Positions 40,909 to 51,748 of a stretch of DNA of 51,854 nt are shown in pieces. This DNA is from Shigella phage JK16. How positions within the stretch are numbered: position 1 is the stretch's first letter; the number at the start of each line of letters is the position of its first letter. The notes under the pieces are model-generated. The model saw only the letters and a list, made by a program, of their open reading frames with translations, made no database searches and was not told the origin of the DNA. The stretch lies in sequence record MK962751. One strand, 5' to 3'. Made by a program: the position numbers and the translations under genes.

Positions 40909-40934
40909 ATACCCGCCTTGCGCGGGTTTTTTTG
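40909..40934 (+). terminator. rho-independent terminator or attenuator before J
   Basis: Stem ACCCGC/GCGGGT followed by T7. Confidence 0.55.
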
Positions 40935-40982
40935 TGCATTTATAATGTGCAAACCAAGAAACAGCACAAAAGGTTAAAAGTC

Positions 40983-43900
40983 ATGGCTAAATATATGATA
41001 AGCGGCAGTAAGGGCGGAAGCAAAAAGCCATACGTGCCAAAAGAGATGGAAGATAACCTGATCTCGATAAACAAGATTAAAGTTTTGCTGGCTGTATCTG
41101 ATGGCGAGTGCGATCCAGATTTCACGTTGCGCGATCTTTATCTTGATGATGTTCCGGTTATTGCCAGCGATGGCACTGTTAACTACGAGGGAGTTACGGC
41201 TGAATATCGACCAGGTACGCAGACGCAAGATTACATCCAGGGTTTTACTGACACATCAAGTGAGGTGACAGTTGCAAGAGATATTACCGGAGACAATCCT
41301 TATGTTATTTCTGTTACAAATAAAAATCTATCTGCGGTAAGAATAAAGATCCTGATGCCAGTAGGCATTAAAACAGAGGATAACGGCGATCTTGTTGGCG
41401 TAAGGGTTGAGTATGCCGTAGATATGGCTGTTGATGGCGGTTCTTATAGCGAGGTTATGAGAGATGTAATTGACGGCAAGACAAGATCAGGATACGACCG
41501 CAGCAGAAGGATTGATCTTCCTAAGTTTGATGAGCGCGTTTTAATCCGAGTAAAGCGACTGACTCCAGACAGCACATCTTCAAAGGTGACTGATAAAATC
41601 AAGCTGCAAAGTTACGCTGAGGTTGTTGATGCAAAATTCCGCTATCCTCTGACTGGACTTGTATTCGTAGAATTTGACAGCGAATTGTTTCCTACGCAAA
41701 TCCCTAACATTTCTATAAAAAAGAAATGGAAGATTATTAATGTGCCAAGCAACTATGATCCAATATCAAGAGAATATCACGGGTCATGGGATGGGACTTT
41801 TAAAAAAGCGTGGTCAAATAATCCTGCTTGGGTTCTTTATGATCTGGTGACAAATCAGCGTTATGGACTTGATCAGCGAGAGTTAGGAATACAGATCGAC
41901 AAGTGGAGCTTATACGAAGCGGGCGTTTACTGCGATCAGAAAGTTCCAGACGGTAAAGGCGGCACTGAGCCTCGCTACCTATGCGATGTGGTGATTCAGA
42001 ATCAAGTTGAGGCTTATCAGCTAATCCGTGACATTTGCTCAATCTTTCGCGGAATGAGTTTTTGGAATGGTGAGAGCTTATCAATCGTGATTGATAAGCC
42101 GCGCGATCCATCATACGTGTTTACTAATGAAAACGTCATCAACGGTGATTTTCAGTACACAAACGCAAGCGAAAAAAGCATGTACACGCAGTGTAACGTG
42201 ACGTTTGACGACGAACAAAACATGTATCAGCAGGACGTAGAGGGGGTTTTTGATACTGAGGCTGCATTACGATTTGGATACAATCCAACAAGCATTACAG
42301 CGATCGGTTGTACACGCAGGAGCGAAGCGAATCGTCGCGGTCGGTGGGTTTTGAAAACAAACCTTAGAAGCACTACTGTAAACTTTGCTACCGGACTAGA
42401 GGGGATGATTCCATCAATAGGTGATGTGATTGCTATCGCTGATAATTTTCAGAGCAGCAACCTAACGTTAAACCTATCGGGCCGAGTGATGGAAGTTTCA
42501 GGATTGCAGGTTTTCGTTCCGTTTAAGGTTGATGCTCGTCCTGGTGATTTTATTATCATCAACAAGCCGGACGGAAAGCCAGTTAAGCGCACGATCTCAA
42601 AGGTTAGCGCAGACGGAAAAACCATTGAGTTAAATATTGGATTTGGTTTTGATGTTAAGCCTGATACTGTTTTTGCGATTGACCGTACTGACCTTGCGTT
42701 GCAGCAATACGTTGTGACAACTATCAGCAAGGGTGATGACGAAAACGAGTTTACCTATTCAATCACTGCTGTAGAGTACGATCCGAACAAATACGACGAG
42801 ATTGATTATGGAGTAAACATTGATGACAGACCGACTTCAATTGTTCAGCCTGACGTGATGGCAGCGCCTGAGAACGTTAAGATCTCATCTTATTCTCGCG
42901 TCGTGCAGGGTGTTAGCGTTGAGACTATGGTTGTTTCATGGGATAAGGTTCCTTACGCATCGCTTTATGAAATGCAGTGGCGAAAAGGTGATGGTAACTG
43001 GCTGAATACGCCGCAGACCGCTAACAAAGAGATAGAGGTAGAAGGGATTTACTCTGGCAACTACCAAGTAAGGGTGAGATCCGTTTCTGCAAGCGGTAAC
43101 GCTTCCCCGTGGTCAAAGATTGCAACCGCCACTCTGACAGGTAAAGTTGGAGAGCCAGGAGCGCCGATTAATCTTACGGCTTCTGATAATGAAGTTTTTG
43201 GCATTCGTGTCAAATGGGGTATGCCGGAAGGATCAGGCGATACGGCTTACATTGAGCTTCACCAATCGCCAGACGGAACGGTTGAAAACTCAAGTCTGCT
43301 TACGCTGATTCCATATCCTCAATATGAGTATTGGCATAGCACGTTACCAGCGGGGCAAGTTGTATGGTATAGAATCCGCAGCGTTGACAGAATAGGCAAC
43401 GTTTCAAGCTGGACTGACTTTGTTCGCGGCATGGCGTCAGATGACGTTGAATCTGTTTTGGGCGACATTCTGGACAAGATTTTTGATACAGAAGCTGGTC
43501 AAGAAATCAAAGAGAACGCCATAGACAGTGCCAATAAAATCAAAGACCAGGCGCAATCAATCATACAGAACGCGTTGGCAAATGATGCAGATGTGAAGTG
43601 GACGCGAGTGCAAAACGGAAAGCGCAAGGCTGAATATGGTCATGCTCTTGAGCTTATCGCCAATGAAACAGAAGCGCGCGTAACTCAAATCGAAGAATTA
43701 AGGGCATCAATTGATGGCGAGATAACATCAAGCATCAAGACAGTGCAGGAGGCAATTGCCACTGAATCAGAGACGCGAGCGACTCAAATTCAGCAGCTTG
43801 ATTCTAAATTCACAAAAGAAATCGACGGCGTGCGCAAGGATACTTCTGCAAGCATTAGCGATGTAAGGCAGACAATCACTAACGAGTCAGAAGCGCGCGC

Positions 43901-44561
43901 TCAGGCCGTTCAGCAGCTTGACGCTAAGTTCACGAAAGAGATAAACGACCTTGACGGAGTTATCAAAACAGAAGTCGAGGCTAACATCTCAGAAGTGAAA
44001 CAGGCGATCGCCAATGAGACAGAGGCAAGGGTTCAGGCTGACCAGGCATTAACAGCACGATTTGGCGACGTTGAATCTGCATTGGTTGAAAAGTTGGATT
44101 CTTGGGCGAGCGTTGATTCAGTTGGGGCTAAATACGCTATGAAACTTGGCCTTACTTACAAAGGCCAGCAATACAGCGCAGGAATGGTGATGCAGCTTTC
44201 GCAGGGTTCATCCGGCCTTATCTCGCAAATTTTGTTTGATGCTAACAGGTTCGCCATTATGACTAGCTCTACTGGAGGGACTTTTACTTTGCCTTTCGTG
44301 GTTGAGAATAATCAGGTTTTCATTAATAGTCTTTTGGTGAAGAACGGTTCAATCACTAATGCGATGATTGGTAATGTGATTCAGTCAAACAACTTTGTTC
44401 AAAACCAGCAAGGATGGAGGCTTGATAAAAACGGAATCTTTGAGAATTACGGATCAACGCCAGGAGAAGGAGCTACTAAATTCACCAATGAGGGATTGAA
44501 GGTAAAAGATGCAAACGGAGTATTGAGGGTTGAAGTCGGAAGGATTACCGGAAGCTGGTAA
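40983..44561 (+). CDS. central tail fibre / host specificity protein J
   Basis: 1192 aa; two fibronectin-III-like segments; C-terminal tandem repeats; position after I. Confidence 0.85.
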   Translation: MAKYMISGSKGGSKKPYVPKEMEDNLISINKIKVLLAVSDGECDPDFTLRDLYLDDVPVIASDGTVNYEGVTAEYRPGTQTQDYIQGFTDTSSEVTVARDITGDNPYVISVTNKNLSAVRIKILMPVGIKTEDNGDLVGVRVEYAVDMAVDGGSYSEVMRDVIDGKTRSGYDRSRRIDLPKFDERVLIRVKRLTPDSTSSKVTDKIKLQSYAEVVDAKFRYPLTGLVFVEFDSELFPTQIPNISIKKKWKIINVPSNYDPISREYHGSWDGTFKKAWSNNPAWVLYDLVTNQRYGLDQRELGIQIDKWSLYEAGVYCDQKVPDGKGGTEPRYLCDVVIQNQVEAYQLIRDICSIFRGMSFWNGESLSIVIDKPRDPSYVFTNENVINGDFQYTNASEKSMYTQCNVTFDDEQNMYQQDVEGVFDTEAALRFGYNPTSITAIGCTRRSEANRRGRWVLKTNLRSTTVNFATGLEGMIPSIGDVIAIADNFQSSNLTLNLSGRVMEVSGLQVFVPFKVDARPGDFIIINKPDGKPVKRTISKVSADGKTIELNIGFGFDVKPDTVFAIDRTDLALQQYVVTTISKGDDENEFTYSITAVEYDPNKYDEIDYGVNIDDRPTSIVQPDVMAAPENVKISSYSRVVQGVSVETMVVSWDKVPYASLYEMQWRKGDGNWLNTPQTANKEIEVEGIYSGNYQVRVRSVSASGNASPWSKIATATLTGKVGEPGAPINLTASDNEVFGIRVKWGMPEGSGDTAYIELHQSPDGTVENSSLLTLIPYPQYEYWHSTLPAGQVVWYRIRSVDRIGNVSSWTDFVRGMASDDVESVLGDILDKIFDTEAGQEIKENAIDSANKIKDQAQSIIQNALANDADVKWTRVQNGKRKAEYGHALELIANETEARVTQIEELRASIDGEITSSIKTVQEAIATESETRATQIQQLDSKFTKEIDGVRKDTSASISDVRQTITNESEARAQAVQQLDAKFTKEINDLDGVIKTEVEANISEVKQAIANETEARVQADQALTARFGDVESALVEKLDSWASVDSVGAKYAMKLGLTYKGQQYSAGMVMQLSQGSSGLISQILFDANRFAIMTSSTGGTFTLPFVVENNQVFINSLLVKNGSITNAMIGNVIQSNNFVQNQQGWRLDKNGIFENYGSTPGEGATKFTNEGLKVKDANGVLRVEVGRITGSW
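43650..44060 (+). repeat. in-frame tandem repeats within J C-terminal region
   Basis: Repeated peptide ...ESE(A/T)RA.Q.QQLD(A/S)KFTKEI... about 40 residues apart. Confidence 0.6.
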
Positions 44562-48342: not shown

Positions 48343-48795
48343 ATGCACGTTATTACAGGTGAGATTCGAAAAGAGCCAAAAGTAAAGCAAATGCCTAACG
48401 GCAGCACGCTATATGTTATTGAGCTTTCCGAACGATACAAAGACCGAGAAGGAAATTGGCAGTATACAAACTATGTGTTTTTCTTTAACGCGAAAACAGA
48501 CGGCCTGAATGGTTGGTATGCTGAGGCGTTCCAGGTGGGCAAGGTTATTTCTGTTTCCTGCGATACCTTGCGAGTTGAAACGCGAGAATACAACGGAAAG
48601 ATTTACAGTACCGTGCAGCCTGGCGGATTTGCAAACTTGCTATTTAGCCAGAGAGGTGAAAGCCAGCAACAATATCAGCAGCGAACGCAAGGAGGATGGG
48701 GGCAACCACAACAGCAACAGCAACAAAATACTCAACAGCAGCCGCAGCAAAGCAATCAGCCTCCGATTGACTTTGACGACGATATACCATTCTGA
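48343..48795 (+). CDS. ssb: single-stranded DNA-binding protein
   Basis: OB-fold N-terminus, Gln/Gly-rich linker, acidic tail DFDDDIPF; AGGAGAAAAC RBS. Confidence 0.85.
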   Translation: MHVITGEIRKEPKVKQMPNGSTLYVIELSERYKDREGNWQYTNYVFFFNAKTDGLNGWYAEAFQVGKVISVSCDTLRVETREYNGKIYSTVQPGGFANLLFSQRGESQQQYQQRTQGGWGQPQQQQQQNTQQQPQQSNQPPIDFDDDIPF

Positions 48796-48799
48796 TAAC

Positions 48800-48830
48800 A
48801 AAAAGCCCCGCATATGCGGGGCATTTTTTA
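48800..48830. terminator. bidirectional rho-independent terminator between ssb (plus) and tail-fibre module (minus)
   Basis: Perfect palindrome GCCCCGCATATGCGGGGC flanked by A-run and T-run. Confidence 0.75.
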
Positions 48831-49502
48831 TTCTAACGTGGTTGGTTTGTTTACCAGTGCCGCTACAACCGCTTTTAGCTCGTCAATTTCTTTTCTCATC
48901 TCATCGTTTTCCGCTTTCAGTTTCTTAACGTGGTGAATCAGTGGAACAGTGAGGCGGTCATACATAACGCCTTTCGCCACCATGCCATTACTTGAAGCAA
49001 TGGCAGGATCTTCTCCTTCTTGCAGCGGTCGCCAGTGAACGTACTCCGGCGCAATTTCTCCAACCTCTTCCGCGATTAGCCCGTACCATCCCCAATCTTT
49101 ACGGTCGCTTTCACAAGTTGACCGATACCAAACAGGACGCATTTCAAGCATCAGATCCGCATATTCATCAATAACCGATTCTACGCTGCTCTTATAACGA
49201 GAAGAGGAAGTGGATCGTAAAACTTGCGACACTCCAGCATTTGGATCAAGCCATAAGTTTGCTGATTGAGCGGTTGTGTTAAGATTAAATAAATAAAATG
49301 CATCGTTACCAGTTAGGGGGTAAAAACTCCCACTATACCTTCCGCTATCCAACTCGGATGATAGATCAGTTTGTTTTAGATACAGCTTCAACTTATTGTC
49401 AACATCAGTAGTTGATGCTTTTCCTGCGACATCCTGTTTTAGTGTTGAAACTTCATTTTTCAGCTTCGTTATATCACTAGGTATAACAGTTACTGTAGCC
49501 AT
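48828..49502 (-). CDS. tail fibre-associated protein with C-terminal intramolecular-chaperone (peptidase S74-like) domain
   Basis: C-terminal GLIAEEVGEIAPEYVHW ... VMYDRLTVPLIHHVKKLKAENDEMRKEIDELK resembles endosialidase-chaperone domain. Confidence 0.5.
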   Translation of the reverse strand: MATVTVIPSDITKLKNEVSTLKQDVAGKASTTDVDNKLKLYLKQTDLSSELDSGRYSGSFYPLTGNDAFYLFNLNTTAQSANLWLDPNAGVSQVLRSTSSSRYKSSVESVIDEYADLMLEMRPVWYRSTCESDRKDWGWYGLIAEEVGEIAPEYVHWRPLQEGEDPAIASSNGMVAKGVMYDRLTVPLIHHVKKLKAENDEMRKEIDELKAVVAALVNKPTTLE

Positions 49503-49514
49503 TTTCCTAACTCC

Positions 49515-49793
49515 TTAAGCCCATTCTCTAATAGGCTGATCTAACTCAACCACGTATCCATTAAAAATTACGGCATCAAACTTATCATCAATGATTCGCA
49601 CATTGACGAAATAGCCGTCGTTCTTTCGCGCAATCTCATCGCCATCGTCAGATCGTGCAATTACTGTGTAAGTATTGCCGATCACATCGAGCAGGATTGT
49701 ATCCTGAATGGATTCGTTTTCGTTCCATTCAATTTCTTCCAGAAAGGCGGAAAACTCCGCCTTGTCTACAAATTTCAGTGTTAAATCACGCAT
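49515..49793 (-). CDS. hypothetical protein (possible fibre assembly factor)
   Basis: Start overlaps fibre stop (TAATG). Confidence 0.4.
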   Translation of the reverse strand: MRDLTLKFVDKAEFSAFLEEIEWNENESIQDTILLDVIGNTYTVIARSDDGDEIARKNDGYFVNVRIIDDKFDAVIFNGYVVELDQPIREWA

Positions 49794-51748
49794 TATACAA
49801 TTTCCCCCAATTGATGATCTGTTAGTGCCTTGTGCCATATACGGAAGTTTCTAACGTGCCCGAAAAGATGACGTTCGCCCGTAGTTGTTTGTCCGCCAAT
49901 CCTTATAGTAGCCGTTGATACTATATATCTCCATTCCGTTTTTGTTTCGCTTGATATTCTGGCATTACTTACACAACAAGTATTGTAATCACTCTTTACT
50001 CTCATTCCTATGATCATCTTTTTTAGTTTCGCATTCTCGTTAACCCTTCTGTTTGATTTACCTATATCGCAATAAGGGAATCCATCACTATCGCCCTTGG
50101 CAGATCCGAAAGCAAGAATAATTTCCGCACCAGATTGATGACCTCCAGAACCAAAAACACGAGGCGCAGCACTTGGCGTCATACTCCAGTTTTTATGAGC
50201 TTCCACAAGCACTGTAAACGGCAAATTGTAAAGGTTGTTTTTTATTGGCAATGTAACCATATCGCTTGCCCTTGTTGTCGGACTTTCATTAGTTATAATG
50301 AATGATGAAGCGCAAGATCCAACCTCTACTTGAGGAGTTGTTAAATCCATAAAGCTATTTTCATCAAAAACTTCTCCTTGTTTATTAACGACCTGTATTA
50401 CCCCCCTAATGGAAGTTGATTCATCAGTAACTTTGTAAACTATTTCTGCAAAAATCCATTCCCCGTCTATGGTAGCGTTCTTTAGCACTATGTTTTTTGC
50501 GTCAACTCCAGAAGTTGCCACCCCTAAGTTATCGCAATCAATAATAGCAGAAGCAACAGAAGATAAAGGATCTCCCTTGTCAAATCTTGCTGCAAATCTT
50601 ACATTTTTCCCCTTAGCCCTAAAAGATATTGTAACTCCATCACCCTTTACAACTGCAATATTATTTGTAGTAAGTCCAGCTATAATAGTGTAAGAGCCTA
50701 CGCCACCTAAATATTTCCCTGGTTTAAATGTTGCATACTTAAACCCCCTTTCATCAGTCTTAGTTTCACCTCTTTCTAATCCTGTATTTGGATTCCATGA
50801 TTCAGGCTTATTTGAATTTACAAAATAGTTTGTTCTCTGCCCTTCAATCAAAAGACCATCCTTTTCAAATCTAGGTTCATCAATAGCAGCATCAGTAAGC
50901 AACCCAGACTTATTAATGTAAGTAGCGGTTGATGCACGTTTAAACTTAACAATCTTGTCACCTGGCATCGTGATCTCATCATCACCTATGACAATCTTTT
51001 TGTATGACGGCGAGAATCCGGTGATCATATCCAGGGAATCATTAAATGGTATCCACACGTCAGGTAGAGGCTGCAATAAATCTTTGTAAGGTTCTGCGGC
51101 CTGTTTTGCGTATTCCTCCGCTTGATCTCGCGCACTTTCAGCGCCTGCCTTTGCGGTGTTCGCAGCATCACGCGCAGTTTCAGCGCCTTTTCTTGCAGTT
51201 TCAGCGCCAGTCTTTGCAGTGTTTGCAGCGTCGCGCGCGGATTCAGCGGCAGCCTTTGCAGTGTCAGCACCTTTCTTGCTATTCTCTGCATTTGTTGCGC
51301 TTGTCTTTGCGTTATTCTCGCTAGTTTTAGCTGCCTTCTGGCTTGCTGCGGCTGCGTCAGCATTTGTCTTTACGTCTTCCTGGATCTTCTGTAGCTTATC
51401 CCAATCAAAATCCTTGATGATCTCAATAAATCCAGCAAGCTCCGACTCCTTTCCCTGGTAATAACGCAACGTTTCCGCTACGTCTTGCGCAAGACCGTCA
51501 ACCGTTAACGAGTCATGAAGCAAGATCAGGTAATTTGTCTTCTGTACTACCGCGCCGCCAGTAGTAATTGCGCGAATGCTTGTATCGCTAATCACTTCTG
51601 TAATCACAGCAGCTTGCAAAGGTTGAGCAAGAAAGAAAATAGTTGCGCCTGGGCGAATCAAGGTTAATTGCTCACGCCATTTTGTACCGTAACCAGTTAC
51701 ATAACCTTGCGCGTCCATAGACGCTTGGCCTTGTCTGTAAATCGCCAT
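49793..51748 (-). CDS. tail fibre protein with Ala-rich repeat region and C-terminal lectin-like domain
   Basis: N-terminal fibre-anchor-like segment, 10-11 residue Ala-rich repeats (ARDAANTAK.GAE.AR), C-terminal GHVRNFRIWHKALTDHQLGEI resembling LamG/ConA-like lectin folds; AGGAGG RBS. Confidence 0.7.
   Translation of the reverse strand: MAIYRQGQASMDAQGYVTGYGTKWREQLTLIRPGATIFFLAQPLQAAVITEVISDTSIRAITTGGAVVQKTNYLILLHDSLTVDGLAQDVAETLRYYQGKESELAGFIEIIKDFDWDKLQKIQEDVKTNADAAAASQKAAKTSENNAKTSATNAENSKKGADTAKAAAESARDAANTAKTGAETARKGAETARDAANTAKAGAESARDQAEEYAKQAAEPYKDLLQPLPDVWIPFNDSLDMITGFSPSYKKIVIGDDEITMPGDKIVKFKRASTATYINKSGLLTDAAIDEPRFEKDGLLIEGQRTNYFVNSNKPESWNPNTGLERGETKTDERGFKYATFKPGKYLGGVGSYTIIAGLTTNNIAVVKGDGVTISFRAKGKNVRFAARFDKGDPLSSVASAIIDCDNLGVATSGVDAKNIVLKNATIDGEWIFAEIVYKVTDESTSIRGVIQVVNKQGEVFDENSFMDLTTPQVEVGSCASSFIITNESPTTRASDMVTLPIKNNLYNLPFTVLVEAHKNWSMTPSAAPRVFGSGGHQSGAEIILAFGSAKGDSDGFPYCDIGKSNRRVNENAKLKKMIIGMRVKSDYNTCCVSNARISSETKTEWRYIVSTATIRIGGQTTTGERHLFGHVRNFRIWHKALTDHQLGEIV
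51100..51350 (-). repeat. in-frame tandem DNA repeats (~33 bp units) inside tail fibre gene
   Basis: Repeated GCAGTTTCAGCGCC / CTTTGCAGTG units; all six frames open here in the ORF track. Confidence 0.7.

What the first reader, a model, noticed from the sequence alone, without database searches (positions are those of the whole stretch)
48828..51748. Minus-strand fibre module: repeat-rich fibre with lectin-like C-terminus plus a separate chaperone-domain protein
The 651 aa fibre carries an Ala-rich repeat array encoded by ~33 bp DNA tandem repeats (51100-51350), a likely site of length variation, and a C-terminal lectin-like domain, probably receptor binding. Two genes downstream is a 224 aa protein whose C-terminus matches the self-cleaving intramolecular chaperone of fibre and spike proteins, but here it is a separate polypeptide. 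This module is transcribed opposite to the J fibre and may be a second, exchangeable host-range determinant.
Basis: partly seen in the sequence, partly recalled or inferred. Interest (0 to 1): 0.5.

Follow-up and report, generated by a model that had tools for sequence, protein, structure and literature searches.

The report
Three-gene lateral tail fibre module
This is the already recognised side-fibre locus of a T1-like coliphage (Shigella phage JK16), and its small "chaperone" gene is more likely a miniature, self-cleaving second fibre piece that plugs onto the main fibre, a gene that many laboratory isolates have lost.

Summary
The window is Shigella phage JK16, a Drexlerviridae phage of the genus Warwickvirus. 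The coordinates and gene order are right: a 651-aa fibre, a 92-aa ORF and a 224-aa ORF form a minus-strand operon.

- **Repeats.** The Ala-rich array is real, but its period is 21/63 bp (heptads), not 33 bp. Its length is the same in all 16 fibres compared.
- **Variable part of the fibre.** Variation lies in the C-terminal carbohydrate-binding-like jelly rolls, so "lectin-like" holds.
- **224-aa protein.** It carries a Peptidase_S74 domain with a conserved Ser99/Lys104 pair.
- **N-terminus.** Its first 15 residues (T-x-T-x-IP-x-DIT-x-LK) match the N-terminus of longer distal fibres, including IrisVonRoten Gp24.
- **Context.** In 80 of 80 loci this motif starts an ORF placed 12–15 nt after a homologue of the 92-aa gene.
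- **Best reading.** It is the smallest member of an exchangeable distal-fibre family, and its chaperone domain acts on its own chain rather than on the 651-aa fibre.
- **Selection.** Intact copies are under purifying selection (dN/dS 0.05–0.33). Yet about 11 of 34 Warwickvirus isolates carry independent knock-outs, while the fibre and 92-aa genes stay intact.
- **Caveat.** Published JK16 virion proteomics detected the fibre but not either small protein.

The locus type is known, so overall interest is modest.

The parts
49793..51748 (-). Lateral tail fibre gene (651 aa; JK16 ORF84)
   Evidence: ORF and Shine-Dalgarno site. 100% identical to the 'tail protein' of Shigella phage JK16. phrog_1419 tail protein, E 1.9e-207. 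Detected in JK16 virions with 20 peptides (PMC6832132).
51374..51748 (-). Fibre N-terminal virion-anchor domain (aa 1-125)
   Evidence: Residues 1-175 align with the N-terminus of Klebsiella phage depolymerases 7vyv and 7lzj (E 4e-54). 97-99% column identity among 16 Drexlerviridae fibres.
51083..51373 (-). Ala-rich heptad coiled-coil shaft (aa 126-222); DNA tandem repeat at 51132-51268
   Evidence: TRF periods 21 and 63 bp. Protein autocorrelation peaks at 7, 14 and 21 residues. No length variation in 16 fibres.
50852..51082 (-). Conserved neck (aa 223-299, LQPLPDVWIPFNDSLDM...); the junction at which different N-terminal anchors are fused
   Evidence: 94-99% conserved among isolates. Alignments to lambdoid and T5-like fibres begin here. 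Low pLDDT in the monomer model. A role as docking site is inference only.
50267..50851 (-). Jelly-roll domain 1 (aa 300-494), the hypervariable putative glycan-binding domain
49796..50266 (-). Jelly-roll domain 2 (aa 495-651), Laminin_G_3-like, with a conserved C-terminal tail
   Evidence: Weak Pfam Laminin_G_3 match at residues 607-654. Some homologues carry PF13385. Beta-rich model at pLDDT 45-70. The last ~30 residues are conserved across phage families.
49515..49793 (-). 92-aa gene translationally coupled to the fibre (TAATG overlap); function unknown
48828..49502 (-). 224-aa gene: miniature distal fibre subunit with a C-terminal S74 chaperone domain
49452..49502 (-). N-terminal docking motif MATVTVIPSDITKLKNE (aa 1-17); the +21/+63 bp tandem copy-number site lies at about 49455
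   Evidence: Motif shared with IrisVonRoten Gp24, the VogelGryff 388-aa protein, KarlBarth gp30 and lambdoid 234-aa proteins. In 80 of 80 IMG/VR loci it sits at the N-terminus of the ORF after the 92-aa gene. Copy-number variation.
49338..49451 (-). Short coiled-coil stalk (aa 18-55)
   Evidence: Coiled-coil Pfam matches and a GCN4-fusion PDB match. Relatives differ here by whole heptad multiples.
49209..49337 (-). Pre-cleavage tip segment (aa 56-98); a C5 tract at 49316-49320 is a frameshift hot spot
   Evidence: Aligns with the last ~40 residues before the chaperone domain in long fibres (phrog_3299, phrog_454, phrog_1699). The tract is C6 in orkinos, JLBYU19 and AV105.
48831..49208 (-). Peptidase_S74 intramolecular chaperone domain (aa 99-224); predicted self-cleavage between T98 and S99
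   Evidence: Pfam match at residues 99-155. S99 is at least 90% conserved and K104 invariant in 28 relatives. 25 of 28 relatives hit PF13884.
48805..48822 (.). Bidirectional intrinsic terminator that closes the fibre operon and the convergent SSB gene
   Evidence: Conserved in relatives.

Best explanation
The region is a three-gene lateral (side) tail fibre operon of a T1-like phage.

Gene 1 is the proximal fibre and main receptor-binding protein. It has an N-terminal virion anchor, a fixed-length Ala-rich heptad coiled coil, a conserved neck, and two jelly-roll domains that resemble carbohydrate-binding modules. The first jelly roll is hypervariable and probably binds surface glycans.

Gene 2 (92 aa) is translationally coupled to gene 1 and always travels with the fibre's C-terminal cassette. 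It is probably an assembly or adaptor factor, but its role is unknown.

Gene 3 (224 aa) is not a detached chaperone for gene 1. It is the smallest member of a family of interchangeable distal fibre subunits that all begin with the same 15-residue docking peptide (T-x-T-x-IP-x-DIT-x-LK). After that peptide it has a short coiled coil of variable heptad number, a 43-residue tip, and a Peptidase_S74 intramolecular chaperone. That chaperone should trimerise its own chain and then cut itself off between T98 and S99, using Ser99 and Lys104. This would leave a trimeric stub of about 98 residues docked on the proximal fibre.

Shown: the gene order, the domain assignments, the conserved motif and its strict genomic context, the conserved catalytic pair, purifying selection, and the recurrent knock-outs.

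Inferred: the docking itself, the self-cleavage, and the presence of the stub in virions.
For: (1) Docking motif. It is shared with bona fide long distal fibres that have unrelated bodies: IrisVonRoten Gp24 (574 aa, T-shaped), VogelGryff (388 aa), KarlBarth gp30 and the JenP1/2 proteins (348-351 aa). The second BASEL paper predicts that Gp24 attaches to the proximal fibre Gp22, which is homologous to this fibre's C-terminus.

(2) Genomic context. A DNA pattern for the motif found 88 IMG/VR stretches. In all 80 analysed the motif starts at residue 3 of an ORF. A 92-aa homologue ending 12-15 nt upstream was scored in 75 of them and the fibre cassette in 78. Reading one of the five unscored loci (L056) showed a diverged homologue there too. 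ORF length classes are 224-245, 330-340, 348-351 and 557-583 aa.

(3) Action in cis. The protein has its own pre-cleavage tip that aligns with the tips of long fibres. S99 and K104 are conserved in 28 relatives.

(4) The fibre does not need gene 3. Phage 21 and Lambda_4C10 have the same fibre cassette plus the 92-aa gene but no third gene.

(5) It is a functional gene. dN/dS is 0.05-0.33. The short form is conserved at about 55% identity, and the 93-aa plus 234-aa pair occurs in 1000 of 5426 complete E. coli genomes.

(6) Knock-outs are gene-specific. At least 8 distinct lesions hit gene 3 and none hit the fibre or the 92-aa gene in the same genomes. If lesions fell in proportion to gene length, that outcome has probability about 8e-6.

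(7) Stalk length changes only in multiples of seven residues.
Against: JK16 virion ESI-MS/MS found the fibre (20 peptides) but neither the 224-aa nor the 92-aa product among 16 proteins, although proteins of 13-16 kDa were detected. The major tail protein was also missed, and only excised gel bands were analysed (PMC6832132).

The mature part is only about 98 residues with a 43-residue tip, so a receptor-binding role is doubtful.

The S74 match of the query itself is 0.1 bit below Pfam's cut-off. A family profile found no solved structure by sequence. The fold of this protein was not modelled here.

No multimer prediction could be run, so docking rests on comparative evidence only.

All frameshift lesions lie in short homopolymers and some could be sequencing errors. 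The three distinct nonsense codons cannot be explained that way.
Confidence: 0.55

Rival explanations
1. Trans-acting assembly chaperone, as annotated in GenBank for PeterMerian and KarlJaspers ('putative lateral tail fiber chaperone'). The 224-aa protein would dock transiently on the nascent 651-aa fibre and use its coiled coil and S74 domain to bring three fibre chains together. It would then be released and would not be part of the virion.
For: The S74 domain is a known trimerisation chaperone. The gene sits where lambda carries tfa, downstream of the fibre. Neither small protein was detected in JK16 virions. The fibre lacks an S74 domain of its own, whereas other Drexlerviridae fibres (JakobBernoulli, haarsle, PGN590) end in one.
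Against: The same fibre cassette exists without this gene in phage 21 and Lambda_4C10. Its N-terminus is that of genuine receptor-binding distal fibres. It keeps its own pre-cleavage tip and catalytic pair, as expected for action in cis. About one third of isolates have lost it while keeping an intact fibre gene. If its loss simply produced fibreless phage, lesions should also fall in the fibre gene, which is three times longer. There is no similarity to Tfa-type chaperones.
Confidence: 0.22
2. Vestigial remnant. The gene would be the decaying stump of a longer distal fibre that lost its receptor-binding body, and it would now be drifting towards pseudogenisation.
For: It is the shortest class of the family. 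About 11 of 34 Warwickvirus isolates carry frameshifts or nonsense codons. Truncated alleles appear as cluster representatives in the 1.8-billion-protein library.
Against: Intact copies have dN/dS of 0.05-0.33, as low as or lower than the fibre. The same short architecture is kept at about 55% identity in lambdoid prophages, where 64 of 65 complete IMG/VR copies are intact, and it is widespread in E. coli genomes. Indels are in-frame heptad multiples. The catalytic residues are conserved.
Confidence: 0.1
3. First reader's version. The Ala-rich repeat array of the fibre would be a length-variable (contingency-like) site that tunes fibre length and host range.
For: The array is encoded by imperfect tandem DNA repeats.
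Against: There are no indels in the array among 16 fibres that are otherwise 58-97% identical. The repeats are only 78-84% identical at DNA level. Variation is concentrated in the jelly-roll domains.
Confidence: 0.03

Closest known systems
IrisVonRoten (Bas32, T5-like) lateral fibre Gp22-Gp23-Gp24 (BASEL collection, PMC11990801)
   Same: It has the same three-gene order. Gp22's C-terminal ~430 residues are homologous to this fibre's C-terminus. Gp23 is a 92-aa homologue. Gp24 begins MVTKTVIPTDITKLKNE and ends in an S74 chaperone domain. The authors predict that Gp24 attaches to the proximal fibre.
   Different: Gp24 is 574 aa with two receptor-binding domains (T-shaped). The JK16 protein is 224 aa, with only a coiled coil and a 43-residue tip ahead of the chaperone domain. 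The N-terminal anchor of the proximal fibre is T5 LtfA-type rather than T1-type.
Branched lateral tail fibres of T5-like phages DT57C and DT571/2 (LtfA/LtfB; PMC4728585, PMC10713586)
   Same: A proximal fibre carries a second fibre protein that docks through a conserved N-terminal segment, and the distal protein has a self-cleaving S74 domain.
   Different: Both LtfA and LtfB carry S74 domains and large receptor-binding regions, and no 92-aa gene is described. Here the proximal fibre ends in jelly rolls without an S74 domain. Whether LtfB shares the docking motif was not tested.
T5 pb1 L-shaped fibre and K1F endosialidase C-terminal intramolecular chaperone (Peptidase_S74, PF13884)
   Same: Both have the S-[D/S]-x-R-x-K motif at the start of the domain, a position at the C-terminus after a fibre tip, and predicted autoproteolytic release.
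   Different: In those proteins the chaperone follows a large fibre or spike (about 1,000 residues or more). Here it makes up 56% of a 224-aa polypeptide.
Lambda Stf/Tfa side tail fibre
   Same: Both are side-fibre loci that are dispensable on K-12 and are classically inactivated by a frameshift in laboratory lambda (my own knowledge). In lambdoid phages the JK16-type cassette occupies the stf-tfa position after J and lom.
   Different: There is no Tfa-like protein. The N-terminal anchor is not PF08400 in JK16. In the isolates examined the lesions fall in the third gene, not in the fibre gene.
Anchor-branch dual receptor-binding protein systems of Klebsiella phages (PMC6872550, PMC13579863, seen in search listings only)
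   Same: Both follow the principle that a second receptor-binding protein docks by a short conserved N-terminal peptide on a first, virion-anchored protein, which allows modular exchange.
   Different: The proteins and folds differ (depolymerase tailspikes). I did not read these papers in detail.

Membership tests
Peptidase_S74 / intramolecular chaperone auto-processing domain (Pfam PF13884) | HMM match at or above Pfam's gathering score | tested here: inconclusive
   The query scores 21.9 bits against a cut-off of 22.0, E 2.2e-4, covering profile positions 1-57 of 58. 25 of 28 aligned relatives match at E<=1e-3, best 8e-9. Relatives at 55-60% identity carry precomputed PF13884 hits.
Peptidase_S74 / intramolecular chaperone auto-processing domain (Pfam PF13884) | Catalytic Ser-Lys pair in an S-D-x-R-x-K type motif at the start of the domain | tested here: met
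   The motif is S99-S-S-R-Y-K104. K104 is invariant and S99 at least 90% conserved in 28 relatives. The one exception looks like a degraded sequence.
Peptidase_S74 / intramolecular chaperone auto-processing domain (Pfam PF13884) | Located at the C-terminus of a fibre or spike polypeptide, directly after its distal tip | tested here: met
   Residues 57-214 align with the C-terminal ends of long fibre families: phrog_3299 at 1191-1384 of 1385, phrog_454 and phrog_1699.
Peptidase_S74 / intramolecular chaperone auto-processing domain (Pfam PF13884) | Chaperone-domain fold as in solved structures (endoNF, T5 pb1) | not tested
A sequence profile of the family found no PDB chain at E<=0.01.
Peptidase_S74 / intramolecular chaperone auto-processing domain (Pfam PF13884) | Trimerisation-dependent autoproteolytic release | not testable with these tools
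   This needs expression of wild type against S99A and K104A mutants.
Two-part (proximal plus distal) lateral tail fibres (DT57C LtfA/LtfB, IrisVonRoten Gp22/Gp24) | Distal-subunit gene downstream of the proximal fibre gene in one operon | tested here: met
   with the same order in five phage groups.
Two-part (proximal plus distal) lateral tail fibres (DT57C LtfA/LtfB, IrisVonRoten Gp22/Gp24) | Conserved N-terminal docking segment on distal subunits whose bodies differ | tested here: met
   The motif T-x-T-x-IP-x-DIT-x-LK starts at residue 3 in 80 of 80 loci, on at least four body classes.
Two-part (proximal plus distal) lateral tail fibres (DT57C LtfA/LtfB, IrisVonRoten Gp22/Gp24) | Distal subunit physically present on the virion via the proximal subunit | tested here: inconclusive
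   Published JK16 virion mass spectrometry lists ORF84 but not the 224-aa product. The method was gel-band based and also missed the major tail protein.
Two-part (proximal plus distal) lateral tail fibres (DT57C LtfA/LtfB, IrisVonRoten Gp22/Gp24) | Distal subunit carries a receptor-binding domain | tested here: inconclusive
   Only a 43-residue tip segment precedes the cleavage site. No binding domain was recognised.
Separate tail fibre assembly chaperones (lambda Tfa, Mu U, T4 gp38 types) | Sequence-family membership | tested here: not met
   [not shown]
Concanavalin-A-like / carbohydrate-binding-module jelly-roll receptor-binding domain (NCBIfam NF048003 GTA_spike_fiber; Pfam Laminin_G_3) | HMM match above the curated cut-off | tested here: met
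   NF048003 scores 54.2 bits against a cut-off of 36 at residues 300-494. Laminin_G_3 alone fails, at 15 bits against 27.6.
Concanavalin-A-like / carbohydrate-binding-module jelly-roll receptor-binding domain (NCBIfam NF048003 GTA_spike_fiber; Pfam Laminin_G_3) | Beta-sandwich jelly-roll fold | tested here: met
   [not shown]
Concanavalin-A-like / carbohydrate-binding-module jelly-roll receptor-binding domain (NCBIfam NF048003 GTA_spike_fiber; Pfam Laminin_G_3) | Carbohydrate binding | not testable with these tools
   This needs glycan-binding or adsorption assays.
Lambda Stf-type fibre (Pfam PF08400 prophage tail fibre N-terminal) | PF08400 N-terminal domain | tested here: not met
   JK16's fibre gives no PF08400 hit. 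Homologous C-terminal cassettes in lambdoid and Queuovirinae phages are fused to PF08400.

The most novel reading that the evidence does not exclude
The conserved C-terminal end of the fibre and the 92-aa protein together form a universal socket. Any distal protein that carries the 15-residue N-terminal peptide T-x-T-x-IP-x-DIT-x-LK can plug into it. This would be a natural plug-and-play host-range system shared by five coliphage lineages: T1-like, T5-like, lambdoid, Dhillonvirus and Queuovirinae. The JK16 224-aa protein would be its minimal plug. Its only mature product would be a self-processed coiled-coil cap of about 98 residues, which is selected for in nature but counter-selected during propagation on rough K-12 hosts, much as stf was lost in laboratory lambda.
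Probability: 0.35. Interest if true: 0.55.

Novelty: new variant of a known kind. Interest (0 to 1): 0.33.

Why it matters
The locus as a whole is ordinary. It is the published lateral tail fibre locus of Drexlerviridae, and JK16's fibre has already been found in virions.

Three points may be useful.

- **Annotation.** Database names for the small S74 proteins, such as 'chaperone of endosialidase' and 'putative lateral tail fiber chaperone', probably misdescribe them. They look like distal fibre subunits. They occur in about a fifth of complete E. coli genomes.
- **Engineering.** A strictly conserved docking peptide next to a conserved 92-aa gene would give phage engineers a defined junction for swapping distal receptor-binding modules between unrelated coliphages.
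- **Isolate quality.** The recurrent, gene-specific knock-outs in phages isolated on K-12 warn that 'wild' isolates may already be laboratory-adapted at this locus. That would bias host-range measurements.

Tried and rejected
- **33-bp periodicity.** Autocorrelation at 33 bp is at background, while 21, 42 and 63 bp stand out.
- **Copy-number variation in the fibre's Ala-rich array.** None was found in 16 fibres.
- **Protein-based locus search in IMG/VR with the 224-aa protein.** It returned only 2 loci. The degenerate DNA pattern for the docking motif worked far better.
- **Family profile against PDB sequences, to tie the S74 domain to a solved structure.** No hit. A single-sequence search gave only coiled-coil noise.
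- **Exhaustive HMMER search with the first 55 residues.** It mainly recovered truncated alleles of the same gene plus generic coiled-coil repeats.
- **Programmed frameshifting as the cause of split ORFs.** Rejected because the lesions lie at different sites and include nonsense codons.
- **One homologous-protein run** failed because of a frame error and was repeated.
- **Literature search for the PhiR49 phages.** Nothing was found.


Full report
**Identity of the window.** The C-terminal 416 residues of the fibre are 100% identical to the 'tail protein' of Shigella phage JK16, on a contig of 51,854 bp, the same length as the window. The closest GenBank relatives are Warwickvirus phages of the Drexlerviridae, subfamily Tempevirinae (T1-like): orkinos (97.8% nucleotide identity), JLBYU19, tunzivis and PeterMerian.

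**Gene layout.** On the minus strand, a terminator at 51839-51822 ends the primase gene. An AGGAGG site and the ATG at 51748 then open a 651-aa ORF. Its TAA stop overlaps the ATG of a 92-aa ORF as TAATG. Twelve bases after that ORF, an AAGGAG site and the ATG at 49502 open the 224-aa ORF. This ORF ends at a bidirectional terminator (48805-48822) shared with the convergent SSB gene. The J-like gene (40932-44561) is on the plus strand.

**The fibre: anchor and shaft.** Residues 1-175 match the N-termini of Klebsiella phage depolymerases 7vyv and 7lzj (E 4e-54). This is the conserved virion anchor of T1-like side fibres. Residues 126-222 are Ala-rich. TRF finds periods of 21 and 63 bp at 51132-51268. 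Autocorrelation peaks at 21, 42 and 63 bp and at 7, 14 and 21 residues, whereas 33 bp is at background. The array is thus a heptad coiled-coil shaft, not a 33-bp repeat.

**The fibre: where it varies.** In an alignment of 16 fibres that are 58-97% identical overall, this segment has no indel. The predicted length variation is therefore absent. Divergence is concentrated in residues about 300-480 and 600-630.

**Published data on JK16.** Electron microscopy shows at least three fibres with distal globules of about 11 x 7 nm. ORF84 (70.7 kDa) was detected in virions with 20 peptides (PMC6832132).

**Exchangeability.** The C-terminal cassette has 2,414 relatives. It is fused to T1-type anchors, to PF08400 lambda-Stf-type anchors (lambdoid prophages, Queuovirinae), and to T5 LtfA-type anchors. 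The junction lies near the motif LQPLPDVWIPFNDSL. The BASEL papers already describe this as the variable lateral tail fibre locus of Drexlerviridae (PMC8594841). The 'second, exchangeable host-range determinant' reading is therefore correct, but it is already known.

**The 224-aa gene: domain content.** Pfam Peptidase_S74 covers residues 99-155 over the full profile, at 21.9 bits against a cut-off of 22.0. 25 of 28 relatives match the family. In the alignment K104 is invariant and S99 at least 90% conserved, within the motif RSTSSxRYK. PHROG profiles align residues 57-214 with the extreme C-termini of fibres of 1,000-1,385 positions. The protein therefore carries its own pre-cleavage tip.

**The 224-aa gene: the decisive N-terminus.** MATVTVIPSDITKLKNE matches the following:
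- MVTKTVIPTDITKLKNE of IrisVonRoten Gp24, a 574-aa T-shaped distal fibre;
- the 388-aa S74 protein of VogelGryff;
- KarlBarth gp30;
- the 234-aa proteins of lambdoid phages.

Each of these follows a 92-aa homologue and a fibre with the same C-terminal cassette.

**Survey of the docking motif.** A degenerate DNA pattern for T-x-T-x-IP-x-DIT-x-LK hit 88 IMG/VR stretches. In all 80 analysed, the motif starts at residue 3 of an ORF. A 92-aa homologue ending 12-15 nt upstream was scored in 75 of them, and the fibre cassette in 78. Reading one of the five unscored loci (L056) showed a diverged 92-aa homologue there too. The ORFs fall into four length classes:
- 224-245 aa, with S74;
- 330-340 aa, with T4-gp37-like repeats and no S74;
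- 348-351 aa, with S74;
- 557-583 aa, T-shaped, with S74.

The second BASEL paper predicts that Gp24 attaches to the proximal fibre Gp22. Branched LtfA/LtfB fibres are established for DT57C. The JK16 protein is therefore best read as the minimal member of an interchangeable distal-subunit family, whose chaperone domain acts in cis.

**Selection on the 224-aa gene.** Intact copies have dN/dS of 0.05-0.33. The 93-aa plus 234-aa pair occurs in 1000 of 5426 complete E. coli genomes. Yet 10 of the 14 Warwickvirus loci I inspected are disrupted. I had chosen them partly because their annotations were split. The lesions are as follows:
- 1-nt deletion at gene nt 126 (brachmannus);
- C5 to C6 at nt 182 (orkinos, JLBYU19, AV105);
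- +CC at nt 229 (JLBYU10);
- 1-nt deletion at nt 374 (ityhuna);
- G138 to stop (Phunderstruck);
- E146 to stop (tuinn);
- Y154 to stop (JLBYU07, EC195).

SECphi27 also has a 3' frameshift.

**Frequency and specificity of the knock-outs.** Counting all records, about 11 of 34 isolates are disrupted. Only 1 of 65 complete prophage-type copies in IMG/VR is disrupted (Fisher p = 2e-5). The fibre and 92-aa genes are intact in every one of these genomes. If eight lesions fell in proportion to gene length, all landing in this gene would have probability about 8e-6. The frameshifts lie in short homopolymers and could partly be sequencing errors. The nonsense codons cannot.

**What the knock-out pattern means.** It argues against an essential trans-chaperone, because loss of fibre function would then also arise by hits in the larger fibre gene. 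It also argues against simple neutral decay. It resembles the classic loss of stf in laboratory lambda (my own knowledge).

**Counter-evidence and limits.** JK16 virion proteomics did not list the 224-aa or 92-aa products. This keeps the trans-chaperone reading alive at about 0.2. I could not run a multimer prediction, and I did not model the 224-aa protein. Docking, self-cleavage and presence in the virion are inferences.

**Verdict.** The locus type is known. The miniature docking subunit and its recurrent loss are a modest new variant.

Noticed in passing
window 49316-49320 (G5 on the plus strand, C5 in the gene): This short homopolymer in the 224-aa gene is C6 in orkinos, JLBYU19 and AV105, although AV105 carries a different fibre allele. 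That suggests recurrent slippage, recombination, or a sequencing artefact.
   Followed up: partly
window about 49455 (gene nt 48 of the 224-aa ORF): In-frame tandem duplications of 21 bp (DVSTIKQ) or 63 bp (21 aa) occur here in relatives. They give three length classes of 224, 231 and 245 aa. JK16 has the shortest form.
   Followed up: yes
L019:6959-8727 (T5-like phage KS_S14) and L023:3770-4649 (Dhillonvirus KarlBarth gp30/gp31): The third gene of the module is also split in these unrelated isolates. KS_S14 has 223-aa and 306-aa ORFs where IrisVonRoten has one 574-aa Gp24. KarlBarth has two overlapping ORFs in different frames. Loss of the distal subunit may therefore be general among laboratory isolates.
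   Followed up: partly
L016:5336-6037 (KarlJaspers 'putative sugar-binding protein') and L020:8652-9317 (VogelGryff 221 aa): These are homologous Gly-rich proteins (MSDMTLLPT...GGFGGEAGAAG...CCCETNLNIERQ) encoded directly after the fibre module in two unrelated phages. They are absent from JK16 and their function is unknown.
   Followed up: no
L017:5716-6003, L018:5716-6009, L022:4292-4585: Lambdoid versions of the module are followed by a conserved 95-97 aa predicted membrane protein. In phage 21 and Lambda_4C10 a sitABCD iron/manganese transporter operon comes next. These may be accessory cargo (moron) genes at the end of the late operon.
   Followed up: no
[not shown]
   Followed up: no
window 48709-48725: A CAACAG tandem repeat encodes the Gln-rich tail of the SSB protein (QQQQQQNTQQQPQQ), just upstream of the acidic C-terminal tip.
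   Followed up: no
(records named Listeria phage LM 4-14-1 and Campylobacter phages C2, C12, C14): Several GenBank records attributed to Listeria or Campylobacter phages carry coliphage-type (T5-like or rV5-like) fibre-module sequences. They are probably mislabelled or contaminated records.
   Followed up: no
(P0303-P0306, P0035): In the library clustered at 50% identity, several representatives that match the N-terminus are truncated ORFs of 62-136 aa. Broken alleles of this gene are therefore common in public assemblies too.
   Followed up: partly
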